A stretch of DNA of 64,000 nucleotides from Trueperaceae bacterium (GTDB lineage Bacteria; Deinococcota; Deinococci; Deinococcales; Trueperaceae): positions 576,001-640,000 of the forward strand of contig CBDCDZ010000004.1 of NCBI GenBank assembly GCA_965215565.1, given 5' to 3'. The position numbers and the translations under genes are program-made. The notes beneath the pieces were generated by a model. The model did no database searches. It was not told the DNA's origin and saw only the letters and a program-made list of their open reading frames with translations. Position 1 is the stretch's first letter; each line of letters begins with the position of its first letter. Of the stretch, positions 59,425-64,000 are shown piece by piece.

Positions 59425-61356
59425 TTACTCAGCGCTGACCTCGGCGTAGCTCGGCGTGAAGAGAATCCAGTGCTTGTAGGGGGCTAACTCGATCGTCTCA
59501 CCATTATCTGCAACGAAGGTAAAGCCGCCTTGTGAGGTCCACGTGCCGGGGAGCGCCTTGCCGCGCAGATAAAGCGCCGCGTCGCCGCCACGGTACGGGA
59601 TGTATAAACGTCCTTCCGGGTCGCCGGGCAGGGGCTGCGCTACGATGTCGGCGACGACGACGGCGTCCACGAGCACGTCTTCGCCCCTAGCATCCGAGGC
59701 TTCGTCCCCATTTCTGAGCCAGCGGTACTGGGCAAGCTGCGAGACGTAGCGAAAGCCGCTCGAGTAGGCGGACGAATAGTCCACCACGACGCGCTCCGCT
59801 CCAGGCGCGTTGTCGGCGGGGCGATAAGCGGAGCCGCGTAACACGCTGGAGGCGTCAAGCTCGAGACGAGTGACGGCTTGCCTGAGCGCGTCCCCGCTGG
59901 CGTAGGTGCTGTAGGGCGCACGTTGGTCGCTCACCACGAAGAAGGGGTCCGCCTGCTCCGCTTGCAGGGCGTCCAGCGTCGCGTCGCCTCTGGCGATTTC
60001 GTTCAGCGCACCGGGCGAGCCGCCCACGTGCACGAGCGTACCGTCCATCGCGCTCGCCGCCTGAACGAAATACGGTCTCGCGCTGCGAATAGGTCCGACT
60101 TCGCTCGGGGTGCTGTTAGGGTTGTCGTAGACGCTCATGAGCCGTGTCAAGCCGCCCTCCACGGGCATTTCGTAAATCGCGCCCGCCTCGCGCAAGCCCG
60201 TCTGCGGGTAGCCGAGCGCGTTGTCGAGTATAGCGGCGATGGGCTGGCTCCGGCTCACTTCATAAGGTGTGCGGCTCGCCGGGGCTCCGGTAGCAGCCGT
60301 CTCTACACTAGGCGCAGCCGCCGCGCCTGCGTTGTTCGCCTGCGCCGCGTCCTGCGACTCGGTTTGCCCCGTATCCGCCGCGTTGCCGCCGAGCGCATCG
60401 GCGTCGGCTCTAGCGGCGACGTCGCCGGACTGCGTCTCTTCGGCGTTGGGCGTTTCGGCGGCCACTTGGTCGGGCACATTCGCCGTAGCGGTGGCTTGCG
60501 GGCTCGGCACGGGTTCAGCCTCCGTCACCTGAACGCCCGGCGTCGCCGCTAGAGGACGCGCGCTCGGCACGGAGACCTGCGCCTGCGGCGTTGGTACAGG
60601 TTGGGCGCTCGGCGCGGAGGCTTGAACTTGGGGTGTAGGAATCGTCCGCTCAGGCACCGACGCGCTCGCCTCGGGCGTCGGCACTGGACGCGCTTCGGGT
60701 ATGGACGCTTGCGCTTGCGGCGTCGGCACGGGTTGGGCGCTGGTGACGGAGACCTGGGCACTCGGCTCGGGTACGGCGACGCGCGACGGGACCTCTACGC
60801 GGGGCGTGAGGGCGACGCTGCGCGCTTCGGGCACGGCGGCGGCGGCGCTTGGTTGAGGAATCTGGATAGGCTCAGCGAGGGGTTGGGGCTCCAGTTCTAC
60901 CTCTTCCACTTCGGGCAGCGTCGTAGCGGCGTCTTGTGGGGGTAGATCGAGCGGTTGCGCGTCTGGCGCGGGCACGCTCGCTTGGGGAGCGAGCGGCGGC
61001 TCGCTTATGGGCTCGTTCTGCGCTCGAGGTGCATCGGGCGCGGCTTCCGCCTGCGCCTCCGGCGCTGCGGTGTTCGGCGCAGGTGCTGTTTCGGGCGTGC
61101 GCGGCGCACCCGCCGCCTCGCTCGCCACCTGCGGCTCGGCGGCTTGCGGGGCGGGCTCAGCGGCGGCGGCAGCGTCGCTCGGCTCCGCCTGCTCGCTCGG
61201 ACCGAGTTCTAAGACGATGAAGTTCTCGGGCTCTAGGGGTGTCGGCGCGACGTAGGCGTAGATAACGGCAAAGATGCCCGCGAGGTGCAGGAGTAGCGAT
61301 AGGAGCAGCGCCCGCCGCTTCTCCTTGTCGCGCCAAAACTGTCTCTCGCGCTGCAC
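59425..61356 (-). CDS. TonB-like membrane-anchored Pro/Ala-rich protein with C-terminal DUF3048-like domain
   Basis: TM with SLLLH motif, ~15-aa PVPTPQAQ repeats, LDN...PQTGL..A..IYE.PVEGGLTR, GPIRSAR, HVGGS. Confidence 0.8.
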   Translation of the reverse strand: MQRERQFWRDKEKRRALLLSLLLHLAGIFAVIYAYVAPTPLEPENFIVLELGPSEQAEPSDAAAAAEPAPQAAEPQVASEAAGAPRTPETAPAPNTAAPEAQAEAAPDAPRAQNEPISEPPLAPQASVPAPDAQPLDLPPQDAATTLPEVEEVELEPQPLAEPIQIPQPSAAAAVPEARSVALTPRVEVPSRVAVPEPSAQVSVTSAQPVPTPQAQASIPEARPVPTPEASASVPERTIPTPQVQASAPSAQPVPTPQAQVSVPSARPLAATPGVQVTEAEPVPSPQATATANVPDQVAAETPNAEETQSGDVAARADADALGGNAADTGQTESQDAAQANNAGAAAAPSVETAATGAPASRTPYEVSRSQPIAAILDNALGYPQTGLREAGAIYEMPVEGGLTRLMSVYDNPNSTPSEVGPIRSARPYFVQAASAMDGTLVHVGGSPGALNEIARGDATLDALQAEQADPFFVVSDQRAPYSTYASGDALRQAVTRLELDASSVLRGSAYRPADNAPGAERVVVDYSSAYSSGFRYVSQLAQYRWLRNGDEASDARGEDVLVDAVVVADIVAQPLPGDPEGRLYIPYRGGDAALYLRGKALPGTWTSQGGFTFVADNGETIELAPYKHWILFTPSYAEVSAE

Positions 61357-61360
61357 GAAC

Positions 61361-61774
61361 TTAATTGCCGCCCGTCGCGATGGCGACGCGCTGCGCCCCA
61401 GCTTGCTTGATCAAGTCCATCACCCGTACGGGCAAGCCGTAGCGCACGCTCTGGTCAGCGCGGAGCACAACCGTATCCGACGCGCTCGACGCCAACACCT
61501 CGCGCAGCACCCCGACGAGGTCCCCCTCGGACACCTGCGCGCCGCCCACGAAGATCTGATCGTCTTGATTGATGGTGACGGTTGGCAACTCCGAGGACTG
61601 TGCCTGGCTGCTCTGCGCTTGGGGCAAATCGACAGGCAGCCCCGACTCGAGCGTGATGAACGTCGTTGAGACCATGAAAAAGATGACGAGCAAAAAGACC
61701 ACGTCCACCATCGGCGTGAGGTCGAGCCCCAGCCCGGTGCGGTTGCGGCGGCTAAGTCGCCCGAATCGGTTCAT
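61361..61774 (-). CDS. exbD: Biopolymer transport protein ExbD/TolR
   Basis: LTPMVDVVFLLVIFFMV, LRAD..V.YG..V.VMD. Confidence 0.9.
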   Translation of the reverse strand: MNRFGRLSRRNRTGLGLDLTPMVDVVFLLVIFFMVSTTFITLESGLPVDLPQAQSSQAQSSELPTVTINQDDQIFVGGAQVSEGDLVGVLREVLASSASDTVVLRADQSVRYGLPVRVMDLIKQAGAQRVAIATGGN

Positions 61775-62435
61775 AATCGTCCTCTACGTCTCCTTCGCTC
61801 CGTCTCTCTCGGGGGCGGTCCTCTTTGCGCCCCGAGACCACCTCGACGACGTTGCCCATCAGCTCTTCGCGGCGGCGCTCGATCTCCAAAAGGATGTTGT
61901 CCACGCGGCTCGAGAGGTAGTTGTAGCCGATAAGCGCCGGAATTGCCACGATGAGCCCCGCCGCCGTCGTCACGAGCGCCTGCCCAATGCCGTCCGCTAG
62001 TGCGGCGGGGTTGCCCGTGCCCTGCTGCGAAATTTCTGAAAACGCAACGATCATCCCCGTGACCGTACCCAAAAGCCCTAGAAGCGGCGCGATCTGCGCA
62101 ATCGTCCCGAGCGGGCGCAAGCCTTTCGTAAGCTGCTGCTCCTCCTCCAACGTCGCCTCTTGAAAGGCGGCTTCGACGGCGGCGCGTCCGTAGGGCAGGC
62201 GTGTCAGGGCAGCTTTGAGCACCCGCGCGATGGGTCCGCCATGATTTTCGCAGGCGACGAGCGCCATCTCGAGGTTGCGCTCGCGCACGGCGGCGTTGAC
62301 CCGCACCATCAGCCGGTCGACGTCCATGCGCTCTTTAGAGAGCTTCAGAAAACGCGCGAAAAAGAGGTAGAGCGCGTAGAGCGATACCAGGAGGATGGCG
62401 ATGAGAACAGGTCCACCACTGCGAAGAAGGTCCAT
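61752..62435 (-). CDS. exbB: MotA/TolQ/ExbB proton channel protein
   Basis: APLLGLLGTVTGM, GIGQALVTTAAGL.VAIPA. Confidence 0.9.
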   Translation of the reverse strand: MDLLRSGGPVLIAILLVSLYALYLFFARFLKLSKERMDVDRLMVRVNAAVRERNLEMALVACENHGGPIARVLKAALTRLPYGRAAVEAAFQEATLEEEQQLTKGLRPLGTIAQIAPLLGLLGTVTGMIVAFSEISQQGTGNPAALADGIGQALVTTAAGLIVAIPALIGYNYLSSRVDNILLEIERRREELMGNVVEVVSGRKEDRPRERRSEGDVEDDYEPIRAT

Positions 62436-62768
62436 AACGTCTGTATCCTAAGCGCCTCGGGGCTTAATCAGATGAGAGAGTGTAGGGTGCGCCATAGTCC
62501 TCTTTACTTTAACGCGGGAGCGACTGTCACGCTAGGTCTAAGATAACGTGTGTAAGGGTTCTATTAGCAGTTCCAAGACATACCGAGACGGATGAGCGCA
62601 GGTCTCTGTCCGCAAGGACTAGCGGGATTTCATCTCATAACGTGCGTGCTACTTTCTGAAAGCCCGCAGGGACGCAGTTTTCGCAGAGCGAATGACGTAG
62701 TTTTCCGAAGGAAACGACGTTCTCAAAAGTAAGAGTGTCTCAAACCAGATGAACTTAGTATAGAGTTG

Positions 62769-63707
62769 TCAAGCCCCCTTCCACCTCTGTGGGTGCTGCT
62801 GAGTGACTTGCAGCATGAAACGAAAGAGTTCTCTTGCGAGATAGGTTTTGAGACTTCTTAGAGCAGCCCGGCGGGTCTTGCCTTGCTGCTGTTTCTTGTC
62901 GAGATAGGCTCTTGTCGGTTCGCTGTGGCGCAGTCTGACTTGGGCAATCATGTGAAAGGTGCGGTTGAGCCGACGGTTGCCGCCGATGTTGAGTTGCCTT
63001 CTCTTCTGACCACCAGAAGAGCGCTCGACAGGCGCACAACCTGAATACATGGCAAAGGCGTGTTGTGAACGAAAGCGTCGGATGTCACCTGCTTCAGCAA
63101 GTAGCGTGGCGGCGTGAACGACGCCGACGCCAAAGACCTCTAAGAGTTCAGGCATCAGTTCGTCAACGAGGGCTTTCATCGCCTGCTCGAGCGTCTTGAG
63201 TTGTTCTTTAAGCACTGCAATAACGGCTTCGACGGCTTGGCGAGCCACCTCTAGCTCAAGGCTCGCTAAGCTCAGCTTGTGCGCTGTAAGCTGTTTAGCT
63301 AGCGCTTCTCGGGTGCGGGTCAGATGTTTGAGGTCTTCAACCGCTTGCCGAGGTGCAAACGTAGTCAGCTCAGGATTAGCCAAAGCAGCCCGAGCTACGT
63401 TTTCAGCGTCTACCTCATCACTCTTCTTGCGTCCTCTTTTGCTGCGGTACTGACTCGTCAGACTCGGACTAATGTCCACAACCTTATGGTCCTGCCCGAG
63501 CAACGCTTGACTCAACCTCCGAGCAAAGGGGTTATTCGCCCCTTCAATAGCGCACCGCTGAACGTCATAGCGCTTTATCCAGTGCTCCAAAGTTGCCAAG
63601 CCCTCAGCCGTATTCGTAACGGTGCAGTGACCTAATACCTTGCCCTGTTTATCTAACGCTGCTGCGGTATGGCTCTGCGGATGTGGATCAACCCCTATAA
63701 TGACCAT
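62769..63707 (-). CDS. IS110 family recombinase/transposase
   Basis: DEDD RuvC motifs GVDPH, IEG, KSDEVDA; Tnp domain GVG...A..L.AE.GDI.RF, RSSG, GNRRL; AAGGAGG RBS. Confidence 0.95.
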   Translation of the reverse strand: MVIIGVDPHPQSHTAAALDKQGKVLGHCTVTNTAEGLATLEHWIKRYDVQRCAIEGANNPFARRLSQALLGQDHKVVDISPSLTSQYRSKRGRKKSDEVDAENVARAALANPELTTFAPRQAVEDLKHLTRTREALAKQLTAHKLSLASLELEVARQAVEAVIAVLKEQLKTLEQAMKALVDELMPELLEVFGVGVVHAATLLAEAGDIRRFRSQHAFAMYSGCAPVERSSGGQKRRQLNIGGNRRLNRTFHMIAQVRLRHSEPTRAYLDKKQQQGKTRRAALRSLKTYLARELFRFMLQVTQQHPQRWKGA

Positions 63708-63724
63708 ACAACCTCCTTAGGTTG

Positions 63725-63865
63725 CTGCTCACGGTAGCTGCTTATCCGTCTATGAGGCTACTAAGCGTCTTAGTATCAGGCAAGCTCCGTGTAGCTTAGT
63801 GAGCGAGGTGTGCAGTTCATCTGTTAGCCCTAAAGCTGATACTTGCTGGGCATCACCTCGCTTCT
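63725..63865 (-). ncRNA. Predicted IS110 bridge RNA
   Basis: Two stem-internal-loop domains whose loops match the target and donor sequences. Confidence 0.82.
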
Positions 63866-63889
63866 CTTAATATACGGATACCTGCTATG

Positions 63890-64000
63890 TACTAAATCCT
63901 CTGCGAAATAGACTTAGAGTAGAGGAGTAGGCTAAAGTAGAGGATGAACGTCGAGAAGCTAAAGAGACGCCCGAAGCACTTACACAACTTCACAGGTTTA
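63890..64000 (+). mobile_element. Possible left end of another IS (IS5/ISL2-like), truncated by window end
   Basis: TACTAAATCC end; ORF from 63944 MNVEKLKRRPKHLHNFTGL resembles HTH_Tnp_4-type N-termini. Confidence 0.35.

What the first reader, a model, noticed from the sequence alone, without database searches (positions are those of the whole stretch)
62741..63887. IS110 bridge recombinase programmed against the terminal repeat of a resident MITE family
Seen: sister MITE-B copies read TAGCAGGTA-TC-ATCTGG. Here that sequence (minus strand) is split at TC by the IS, with the dinucleotide on both sides (62751-52, 63877-78) and no TIRs. The non-coding end upstream of the recombinase has a stem AGCGAGGUG/CACCUCGCU (63862-54/63810-02). 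It encloses AGCAAGUAUC (63847-38; 9/10 identical to left target + core AGCAGGTATC), a small hairpin AGCUUUAGGGCU, and CAGAUGA (63823-17; exact reverse complement of core + right target TCATCTG). Established: this is the left/right target-guide layout of IS110 bridge RNAs such as IS621, which targets REP repeats. Inference: this element has a TC core and uses another mobile element's conserved end as a multicopy safe harbour, breaking that MITE's TIR.
Basis: partly seen in the sequence, partly recalled or inferred. Interest (0 to 1): 0.92.

Follow-up and report, generated by a model that had tools for sequence, protein, structure and literature searches.

The report
Bridge-RNA insertion sequence targeting a MITE end
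This is a small jumping gene of the IS110 family whose own guide RNA steers it into one exact spot at the end of another, far more abundant, miniature mobile repeat; it is a clear natural example of a mechanism already described in 2024, not a new kind of system.

Summary
Window 62753-63876 (minus strand) is a 1124-bp IS110-group element. Its 312-aa recombinase carries PF01548 and PF02371 and matches the IS621 transposase. Its 169-nt left end folds into two stem-enclosed internal loops.

All 7 genomic copies sit at TAGCAGGTA-TC|IS|TC-ATCTGG, each with a unique left flank. The intact 17-mer occurs 209 more times, as the outer end of a ~111-nt MITE-like repeat.

I also found the donor guides, both handshake dinucleotides, the ATAC/GTAT subterminal repeat and a promoter that exists only at the circle junction.

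In 19 homologous elements from related genomes the guides covary with their own flanks (10.3 of 13 cognate against 4.6 non-cognate). A 75%-identical relative targets a related repeat end with the TC core 3 nt further in.

Bridge RNAs, IS110 targeting of REP repeats, IS1111 in a Coxiella MITE and IS4321/IS5075 in transposon inverted repeats are all in print. There is no RNA or activity evidence.

Unexplained: every occupied site is of the ...ATCTGG-TTTGAG subtype, against 70 of 209 empty sites.

The parts
62753..63876 (-). IS110-group insertion sequence, 1124 bp. Assigning one TC copy to the flank is arbitrary.
   Evidence: 7 full genomic copies end exactly here: 6 identical and 1 with one mismatch.
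62769..63707 (-). Recombinase gene, 312 aa: DEDD RuvC-like domain plus Tnp domain with the conserved serine (S231).
   Evidence: PF01548 at 6.4e-22 and PF02371 at 1.3e-20. IS621 transposase 8wt6 at E 2.9e-16, with the SSGG motif aligned to its ESGS motif. S241 is the catalytic serine of IS621.
63708..63876 (-). Left non-coding end, the predicted bridge RNA gene (169 nt): target-binding loop, donor-binding loop, then a hairpin over the ribosome-binding site.
   Evidence: MFE -57.6 kcal/mol, z-score -3.58. The scaffold is conserved in 19 homologs. No Rfam match.
63854..63862 (-). 5' arm of the stem closing the target-binding loop (AGCGAGGUG).
   Evidence: Pairs with 63802-63810. RNAalifold found 15 of 17 predicted pairs with a compensatory change.
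63802..63810 (-). 3' arm of the stem closing the target-binding loop (CACCUCGCU).
63838..63847 (-). Left target guide AGCAAGUA + core UC.
   Evidence: 9 of 10 identical to the left flank AGCAGGTA-TC in 7 of 7 copies. Homolog guides match their own flanks at positions -9 to -1 in 13-19 of 19, against 4-5 of 19 further out.
63826..63837 (-). Small hairpin between the two target guides (AGC UUUAGG GCU).
   Evidence: The G-C and C-G pairs are invariant in 19 of 19 sequences.
63817..63823 (-). Right target guide CAGAU + core complement GA.
   Evidence: Exact reverse complement of TC-ATCTG on the right flank of 7 of 7 copies. Homologs match at positions +1 to +7 in 17-19 of 19.
63815..63816 (-). Handshake dinucleotide AC of the target-binding loop. 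It is complementary to GT, the last two bases of the right end.
   Evidence: The first handshake base pairs with the last right-end base in 10 of 11 distinct homolog combinations. The concept comes from passages read.
63780..63795 (-). 5' arm of the stem closing the donor-binding loop.
   Evidence: 13 pairs are 100% paired in 4 sequences, 5 with compensatory change. Slid controls give 17-47% paired.
63727..63741 (-). 3' arm of the stem closing the donor-binding loop.
63769..63777 (-). Left donor guide GAUACUAAG. It is identical to the right-end tail ATACTAAG.
   Evidence: It covaries with the right-end tail across homologs: ACTAAG, ACCAAG, ACCAGG, ACTAGG, ACTTG. Pairing with the core is not evident for this guide.
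63745..63753 (-). Right donor guide AUAGACGGA. It is the reverse complement of the core plus left-end start, TCCGTATAT (8 of 9).
   Evidence: CGGA goes with left ends starting TC|CG and CAGA with left ends starting TC|TG in the homologs.
63743..63744 (-). Handshake dinucleotide UA of the donor-binding loop. It is complementary to TA, the last two bases of the left target.
   Evidence: The first base pairs with the last left-target base in 10 of 11 distinct combinations.
63709..63724 (-). Hairpin CAACC-UAAGGA-GGUUG enclosing the Shine-Dalgarno sequence, just before the ATG.
   Evidence: Part of the MFE fold. Inferred to limit translation.
63869..63874 (-). -10-like hexamer TATATT at bases 3-8 of the left end.
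   Evidence: It forms TTGACA-18 nt-TATATT (11 of 12) only across the circle junction. No promoter-like site is found in the integrated copy.
62767..62772 (-). -35-like hexamer TTGACA in the right end, overlapping the stop codon.
   Evidence: TTGAC is present in the right ends of the homologs.
62753..62768 (-). Right non-coding end, 16 nt, ending ...ATACTAAGT.
   Evidence: The long left end and short right end are typical of the IS110 group (passage read).
63877..63878 (-). Core TC, left copy.
62751..62752 (-). Core TC, right copy.
63879..63887 (-). Outer 9 nt of the interrupted repeat (TAGCAGGTA), the left target.
   Evidence: The DNA beyond it is unique in each of the 7 copies.
62565..62750 (-). 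Rest of the interrupted MITE-like repeat. It is a long variant of about 197 nt in all, starting ATCTGGTTTGAG and ending GGAACTGCTA.

Best explanation
Window 62753-63876 is an intact IS110-group insertion sequence that works like IS621.

Proposed mechanism:
1. Its left end encodes a bridge RNA of about 150-170 nt.
2. The first internal loop carries a left target guide (AGCAAGUA-UC) and a right target guide (CAGAU-GA). They read the bottom and top strands of the 14-15-bp site (A)GCAGGTA-TC-ATCTG.
3. The second loop carries donor guides (AUACUAAG and ACGGA). They read the element's own joined ends, ATACTAAGT-TC-CGTAT.
4. The DEDD/serine recombinase exchanges strands at the TC core, helped by the two handshake dinucleotides (AC and UA).
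5. Excision to a circle joins a -35 box in the right end to a -10 box in the left end. That switches on the RNA and the recombinase.

The target is the outer end of a very abundant ~111-nt MITE-like repeat, so the element has hundreds of presumably harmless landing sites. Each insertion splits that repeat's terminal inverted repeat 11 nt from its tip.

Shown here: element anatomy, site specificity, guide/target and guide/donor covariation, and stem covariation.
Inferred: that the RNA is made, that it binds the recombinase, that the element is active now, and that the sites are harmless.
For: Site specificity. 7 of 7 full copies are flanked by TAGCAGGTA-TC and TC-ATCTGGTTTGAG, with unique DNA to the left. 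One partial copy and 4-5 short end remnants show the same junctions.

Target abundance. There are 209 empty exact 17-mers and 230 copies of AGCAGGTATCATCTG in the genome.

Protein. PF01548 and PF02371. IS621 transposase at E 2.9e-16, with the serine motif aligned.

RNA structure. The fold z-score is -3.58. 15 of 17 consensus pairs show compensatory change in 19 homologs. In the donor loop, 13 of 13 stem pairs are kept in 4 sequences, 5 of them compensatory.

Guide/flank covariation. The cognate score averages 10.3 of 13 (n=19, range 8-12). The non-cognate score averages 4.6 (n=328). Identity is confined to positions -9 to -1 and +1 to +7/8.

Natural retargeting. The G282 relative (75% aa identity, 3 copies) has guides AGGUAGCA-UC and GACCA-GA and sits at CAGG(T/A)AGCA-TC-TGGT(C/T).

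Handshake bases. They pair in 10 of 11 and 10 of 11 distinct combinations.

Promoter. The circle junction gives TTGACA-18-TATATT (11 of 12), against 0 promoter-like sites in the integrated copy.

Agreement with print. The layout matches the published rules (passages read).
Against: - No RNA data. No listed sequencing run is RNA, and the runs held are contigs, which cannot show circles or transcripts.
- Rfam has no matching family.
- The left target guide has one mismatch to every occupied site (A where the target has G). The only 2 guide-perfect sites, AGCAAGTATCATCTG, are not among the occupied sites.
- The left donor guide does not visibly pair with the core, unlike the published IS621 model.
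- All occupied sites are of the TTTGAG subtype, against 70 of 209 empty sites. The guides do not explain this.
- Two pairs of copies share 52 and 77 nt of otherwise unique right flank. Not all 7 right junctions are therefore independent.
Confidence: 0.88

Rival explanations
1. The copies spread mainly by recombination rather than RNA-guided insertion. Either gene conversion or homologous recombination between repeat copies carries the IS along, or the repeat with the IS inside is moved as a unit by the repeat's own transposase.
For: Two pairs of copies share 52 nt and 77 nt of right-flanking repeat DNA. That DNA occurs nowhere else in the genome, even allowing 5 mismatches. The copies are identical, or differ by one base, over 1124 bp.
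Against: Homology on the left side is only 11 nt before unique DNA begins, in all 7 copies. The repeat bodies to the right fall into at least 5 different contexts and diverge after the shared stretch. Transposition as a unit is therefore not supported. Recombination also does not explain why homologs in other genomes carry guides matching their own, different flanks.
Confidence: 0.06
2. The recombinase protein recognises the target directly, and the guide-like matches in the left end are coincidence or only donor-end similarity.
For: No RNA has been observed. One guide position mismatches every occupied site. The TTTGAG bias hints at a determinant outside the guides.
Against: The guide positions change together with the flanks across 19 elements while the scaffold stays fixed. 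The match is confined to the expected positions. The stems covary like an RNA. The handshake bases covary with the non-cognate DNA.
Confidence: 0.03
3. The element is a recent but now silent fossil: intact in sequence, but no longer excising or inserting in this strain.
For: There is no direct evidence of activity. The genome holds decayed relatives, namely an element with a stop codon at C4:~420860-421990, a partial copy and short remnants. The copy in the sister genome G002 has a 78-nt insertion in codon 3.
Against: Six copies are identical and one differs by a single base, all with open reading frames. That argues for very recent spread.
Confidence: 0.1

Closest known systems
IS621 of Escherichia coli (IS110 group; bridge RNA; Durrant et al. 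2024 PMC11208160; Hiraizumi et al. 2024 PMC11208158; passages read)
   Same: - DEDD plus serine recombinase (E 2.9e-16 to PDB 8wt6).
- Long left end and short right end.
- Bridge RNA with target loop first and donor loop second.
- Left guide equals the top strand; right guide is its reverse complement.
- Core included in the target guides and the right donor guide.
- Handshake dinucleotides.
- ATA...TAT-type subterminal repeat.
- -35 in the right end and -10 in the left end.
- Target is a multicopy interspersed repeat.
   Different: - Core is TC, not CT.
- The right target guide is 7-8 nt (IS621: 4 nt in the analysis described).
- The left donor guide shows no pairing with the core.
- The target is the end of a ~111-nt MITE-like repeat, not a REP.
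- The protein is only distantly related.
- Nothing has been tested experimentally here.
ISPpu9 / ISPpu10 / ISPa11 of Pseudomonas (IS110 family in REP sequences; Tobes & Pareja 2006 PMC1525189, tables read; PMC12288879, abstract and passages; preprint 10.64898/2026.03.19.712850, abstract only)
   Same: Every copy sits at one position of an interspersed repeat: 7 of 7, 7 of 7 and 6 of 6 there, 7 of 7 here. ISPpu10 is reported to need a target feature beyond base pairing. That is a possible parallel to the TTTGAG bias here.
   Different: The host phylum, the repeat type and the core dinucleotide differ (AG for ISPpu9). No downstream small-RNA module like ssr9 is seen here.
IS1111 in QMITE2 of Coxiella burnetii (stated in the MITE review PMC10969869, passage read; primary paper not read)
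   Same: An IS110-family element uses a MITE as its insertion target.
   Different: IS1111 belongs to the other subgroup, with the guide RNA in the right end and long subterminal repeats. There the recognised feature is described as the MITE's palindrome, not its terminal repeat.
[quoted passage not shown]
   Same: An IS110-family element inserts at a fixed position inside another mobile element's terminal inverted repeat and so breaks it.
   Different: The subgroup differs. The target is a large transposon rather than a miniature repeat, and there are far fewer target copies per genome.

Membership tests
IS110 family, IS110 group (IS621-like bridge recombinase elements) | [quoted passage not shown] | tested here: met
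   E 6.4e-22, residues 4-149. The KKSDEVDA motif aligns with KTDTVDA of IS621.
IS110 family, IS110 group (IS621-like bridge recombinase elements) | C-terminal Tnp domain (PF02371) with the conserved catalytic serine | tested here: met
   E 1.3e-20, residues 188-268. S231 in ERSSGG aligns with the serine of YESGS in IS621. S241 is the catalytic residue there.
IS110 family, IS110 group (IS621-like bridge recombinase elements) | No terminal inverted repeats, no target duplication beyond a shared core, and only a short subterminal inverted repeat | tested here: met
   The ends are CGTATATT... and ...ACTAAGT. The shared core is TC. The subterminal pair is ATAC...GTAT. The published pattern is ATA...TAT.
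IS110 family, IS110 group (IS621-like bridge recombinase elements) | Long left non-coding end upstream of the gene and a short right end | tested here: met
   169 nt against 16 nt. The rule is as stated.
IS110 family, IS110 group (IS621-like bridge recombinase elements) | Left end folds into two stem-closed internal loops supported by covariation | tested here: met
   15 of 17 pairs compensatory; 5 of 13 compensatory, 100% paired.
IS110 family, IS110 group (IS621-like bridge recombinase elements) | First loop carries guides matching the left target (same sense) and right target (reverse complement), each including the core | tested here: met
   9 of 10 and 7 of 7 in the window element, at 7 of 7 copies. 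Cognate against non-cognate score 10.3 against 4.6 of 13.
IS110 family, IS110 group (IS621-like bridge recombinase elements) | Second loop carries guides matching the joined right and left ends, each including the core | tested here: inconclusive
   The left donor guide AUACUAAG matches the right-end tail and covaries with it. The right donor guide ACGGA matches TC+CGT including the core. The left donor guide shows no match to the last right-end base or the core.
IS110 family, IS110 group (IS621-like bridge recombinase elements) | Handshake bases 3' of the right guides pair with the non-cognate DNA | tested here: met
   AC pairs with GT and UA pairs with TA in the window element. 10 of 11 and 10 of 11 across homologs.
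IS110 family, IS110 group (IS621-like bridge recombinase elements) | Sequence-specific insertion at one site | tested here: met
   7 of 7 full copies, plus a partial copy and remnants, sit at the same TC.
IS110 family, IS110 group (IS621-like bridge recombinase elements) | Circular intermediate whose junction forms a sigma-70 promoter for the RNA | tested here: inconclusive
   By sequence only. The junction gives TTGACA-18-TATATT (11 of 12), and 15 of 23 loci have a junction-spanning match. None is found in the integrated copy. No circle has been observed.
IS110 family, IS110 group (IS621-like bridge recombinase elements) | The RNA is expressed, binds the recombinase and directs recombination | not testable with these tools
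   No RNA run is listed, and the runs held are contigs only.
MITE (the target repeat) | Short non-coding element in many copies with terminal or inverted repeats | tested here: met
   209 exact and 441 near-exact (up to 3 mismatches) left ends. The canonical length is 111 nt in 74 of 126 elements of the main class. The ends are TAGCAG...CTGCTA, with inner repeats CAGGTATCATC / GATGATAYCTG.
MITE (the target repeat) | Evidence of insertion with a target duplication | tested here: inconclusive
   TA lies at both tips, compatible with a TA duplication. One copy interrupts an IS630-type transposase reading frame. I did not find an empty-against-filled site pair.
MITE (the target repeat) | An autonomous parent element with the same ends | tested here: not met
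   Among ORFs lying between repeat ends, no recurring transposase turned up. The IS630-type genes present do not carry these ends. The search was limited to this genome.

The most novel reading that the evidence does not exclude
The IS lineage and the repeat family may be locked in a hyperparasite relationship with a recognition layer beyond the guides.

- Related IS in different genera of this family keep retuning their guides to track the same repeat terminus. The window element cuts at GCAGGTA-TC-ATCTGG. The 75%-identical G282 element cuts 3 nt further in, at CAGGTAGCA-TC-TGGTC.
- All occupied sites here belong to one repeat subtype (TTTGAG after the target), against 70 of 209 empty sites.

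The second point would mean that target DNA context or structure gates insertion, as recently claimed for ISPpu10. It would also mean the IS selectively disables one lineage of the repeat.
Probability: 0.2. Interest if true: 0.55.

Novelty: new member of a known kind. Interest (0 to 1): 0.33.

Why it matters
- It adds a cleanly annotated natural bridge-recombinase system from a Deinococcus-related lineage. It has a TC core, a 7-8-nt right target guide and more than 200 natural target copies in one genome.
- A close relative is retargeted by a 3-nt register shift on a related repeat end. That gives a natural example of guide reprogramming.
- The subtype bias of occupied sites gives a simple test bed for asking whether IS110 targeting depends on more than base pairing.
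- It does not change what is known about how these elements work.

Tried and rejected
- Rfam (E up to 1) on 61000-64000: no match. No curated family covers this RNA.
- The search for related loci with the single protein in genome contigs: 120 pattern hits, none confirmed. Homologs came from the genome search instead.
- Sequencing runs: no RNA holder is listed. All 4 runs laid are Logan contigs, so transcript ends, circle junctions and empty sites could not be seen, and contig depth cannot be read as copy number. Two runs of the same species label held almost none of the stretch.
- Parent of the repeat:
  - The IS630-type genes (PF13358; 3 hits, one below the cut-off) do not carry the repeat ends.
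  - Pairs of inverted ends 0.5-4 kb apart mostly enclose host genes.
  - ORFs between a left and a right end show no recurring transposase.
- Explaining the TTTGAG bias by a longer right guide: the reverse complement of the guide region matches only TCATCTG and then diverges. A bulged alignment gives at most one extra pair. Rejected as unconvincing.
- Pairing of the left donor guide with the core: looked for in all 19 sequences and not seen.
- The second, decayed IS110 element (C4:~420860-421990, stop codon in the ORF) matches its flanks only partly, 8 of 13. It is kept in the counts but is weak evidence on its own.
- L050 (G362) has an aberrant right junction (core GG) and scores 8 of 13. It is kept in the counts.
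- Site C4:269803, with 8 nt of left end followed by the inverted right part of a repeat, is a doubtful remnant.
- Earlier notes of this scan: nothing on this element or repeat.
- Searches for prior print of an IS110-family element targeting a MITE found the Coxiella IS1111/QMITE2 statement, but nothing on this organism or repeat.
Full report
**The element.** On the minus strand the window reads ...ACATAGCAGGTA-TC-CGTATATTAAGAG...CTATACTAAGT-TC-ATCTGGTTTGAG.... The 1124 bp between the two TC copies (62753-63876) hold one ORF, 62769-63707, of 312 aa. The ORF carries PF01548 (DEDD_Tnp_IS110, 6.4e-22) and PF02371 (Transposase_20, 1.3e-20). It matches the solved IS621 transposase (8wt6, E 2.9e-16) and ISCro4 transposase (9t56, 2.7e-14). 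Its ERSSGG motif aligns with the YESGS motif that holds the catalytic serine of IS621. The non-coding left end is 169 nt and the right end 16 nt, which is the IS110-group arrangement (passage read). There are no terminal inverted repeats, only ATAC...GTAT flanking the donor site, as published for this group.

**Site specificity.** The genome (4.49 Mb, 4 contigs) holds 7 full copies, 6 identical and 1 with one mismatch. All 7 are flanked by TAGCAGGTA-TC on the left and TC-ATCTGGTTTGAG on the right. The DNA left of TAGCAGG is different in every copy. The same junctions are found at other sites:
- one partial copy (C4:3452692-3453283);
- three sites where the repeat end is followed by only 9, 19 or 23 nt of the left end and then by repeat interior;
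- one doubtful site with 8 nt of left end;
- one site with only the last 9 nt of the right end.

**The target.**
- The uninterrupted 17-mer TAGCAGGTATCATCTGG occurs 4 times in the window, with 0 expected in 100 shuffles.
- In the genome it occurs 209 times exactly. A further 86, 90 and 56 sites carry 1, 2 and 3 mismatches.
- It is the outer end of a repeat whose commonest form is 111 nt, TAGCAGGTATCATCTGG...GGAACTGCTA. 74 of 126 elements of the main class end at 111.
- The repeat has an inner inverted repeat, CAGGTATCATC / GATGATAYCTG, and optional hairpin modules.
- TA lies at both tips. One copy interrupts an IS630-type transposase frame. Both observations fit a mobile MITE.
- I found no autonomous parent, so 'MITE-like' is the safe label.
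- The end motif GCAGGTAKCATCTGG is present in 5 of 5 related genomes tested: 97, 87, 46, 18 and 4 copies, with 0 for the reversed control.

**The RNA.** The left end folds (MFE -57.6 kcal/mol, z -3.58, 0 of 200 shuffles as good) into two stem-closed domains plus a hairpin over the Shine-Dalgarno sequence. I then collected homologs with the genome search. 6 of 61 relatives matched at E<=1e-20, and 18 of 364 genomes of the phylum at E<=1e-40, both counts including the window's genome. I aligned 19 left ends.

The alignment shows a fixed scaffold: GCCC, 8 variable bases, UC, (A/U)GC, a hairpin, GC, variable bases, GA, A(C/U)UGC. RNAalifold predicts 17 pairs, 15 of them with compensatory changes. 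For the donor-loop stems I named a structure on the four closest sequences. 13 of 13 pairs are kept in all four and 5 show compensatory change, while slid controls give 17-47% paired. That sample is small.

**Guides against flanks.** I took 8 variable left-guide positions and 5 variable right-guide positions by alignment column and scored each element's guides against flanks.
- Against its own flanks: mean 10.3 of 13 (n=19, range 8-12).
- Against other elements' flanks: mean 4.6 (n=328). The high non-cognate values, up to 11, come from near-identical sister elements.
- By position, identity to the flank is 13-19 of 19 from -9 to -1 and 17-19 of 19 from +1 to +7. It falls to 4-5 of 19 beyond -9 and to 2-7 of 19 beyond +8.

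The site read is therefore about 14-15 bp, (A)GCAGGTA-TC-ATCTG. Mid-guide mismatches at -5 to -7 are common in the set, and the window element's single A/G mismatch lies at -6.

**Natural retargeting.** The clearest case is G282 (75% aa identity, 3 copies). Its guides are AGGUAGCA-UC and GACCA-GA, and its flanks are CAGG(T/A)AGCA-TC and TC-TGGT(C/T). That is a related repeat end cut 3 nt further in. That genome has only 6 empty sites of this form.

- GAUACUAAG (63777-63769) equals the right-end tail ATACTAAG and covaries with it across homologs.
- AUAGACGGA (63753-63745) is the reverse complement of TCCGTATAT (8 of 9). CGGA goes with left ends starting CG and CAGA with left ends starting TG.
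- The left donor guide shows no pairing with the last right-end base or the core. This departs from the IS621 scheme.
- The dinucleotides that follow the right guides behave as published handshake guides. AC is complementary to the right-end GT and UA to the target TA. The first base pairs in 10 of 11 and 10 of 11 distinct combinations.
- The integrated copy has no sigma-70-like site. The computed circle junction gives TTGACA-18-TATATT (11 of 12). 15 of 23 loci have a junction-spanning match.

**What is not shown.** No RNA run is listed, and the runs held are contigs. Expression, circles and current activity are therefore inferred. Rfam has no family for this RNA.

**Unexplained.**
- (a) All 7 full copies and the partial copy lie in repeats that continue TTTGAG after ATCTGG. 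These make 6 distinct contexts. Only 70 of 209 empty exact sites continue that way. The short right-end remnant is the one exception. The guides do not reach these bases.
- (b) 52 sites of a subtype, AGCAAGTATCATTTG, would match the left guide perfectly and the right guide with one G-T pair. None carries an IS among the junctions found.
- (c) Two pairs of copies share 52 and 77 nt of right flank found nowhere else, even allowing 5 mismatches. Gene conversion from the IS into the adjoining repeat is my best guess.

**Comparison with print.**
- Bridge or seek RNAs of IS110/IS1111 elements and their guide logic: PMC11208160, PMC11208158 and PMC11187229, passages read.
- IS110-family elements occupying every copy at one position of REP repeats (ISPa11 6 of 6, ISPpu9 7 of 7, ISPpu10 7 of 7): PMC1525189.
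- IS1111 using a Coxiella MITE as target: review PMC10969869; the primary paper was not read.
- IS4321/IS5075 targeting transposon inverted repeats: title only; the paper is not held.
- A target determinant beyond base pairing has been claimed for ISPpu10: preprint abstract only.
- Four literature searches found nothing on this element or repeat.

**Verdict.** This is a new member of a known kind, of moderate-to-low interest.

Noticed in passing
genome C4:160182(-), 687468(+), 3341777(+), 269803(-), 695978(-); outside the window: There are short remnants of the IS at the same repeat site. 8-23 nt of the left end, or 9 nt of the right end, are joined directly to repeat interior. Small shared motifs (GCGA, GGTG) lie at two of the junctions. 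They look like microhomology deletions of former insertions.
   Followed up: partly
window 62753-62700 and genome C4:681666; also C4:2530238 and 3105979: Two pairs of IS copies share 52 nt and 77 nt of right-flanking repeat sequence. That sequence occurs nowhere else in the genome, even allowing 5 mismatches, and the flanks then diverge. Gene conversion spreading out of the IS is possible.
   Followed up: partly
L025 (G002:C2), about 1411-1520: The single copy in the sister genome sits at the same target. It carries a 78-nt insertion after ATGGTCAT (codon 3) that contains a GATGATACC-like repeat fragment. That makes a mobile element inside a mobile element inside a mobile element.
   Followed up: partly
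genome C4:~179860-179950; G277:C1:417511-417621 and 334637-334695: The repeat's terminal motif also occurs as head-to-tail arrays: period about 27 nt in the window's genome, and 32 and 22 nt in G277. Their origin is unknown.
   Followed up: no
genome C4:~420860-421990 (L040): A second, decayed IS110-group element (56% aa identity, stop codon in the ORF). It has the same RNA scaffold, a TC core and different guides, and it lies next to an IS630-type gene fragment.
   Followed up: partly
L021:771-881 (genome C4:~1933083): A 111-nt copy of the repeat interrupts an IS630-family transposase reading frame. This is direct evidence that the repeat has been mobile.
   Followed up: partly
window 62565-62752 and other copies: The repeat is modular. 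Copies differ by the presence or absence of short hairpin cassettes (for example TTTCCTTCGGAAAAC, TTCGCTCTGCGAAAAC, GTGTACGAAGTTTTGCGAAGCAAC). Lengths therefore range from about 80 to more than 200 nt.
   Followed up: no
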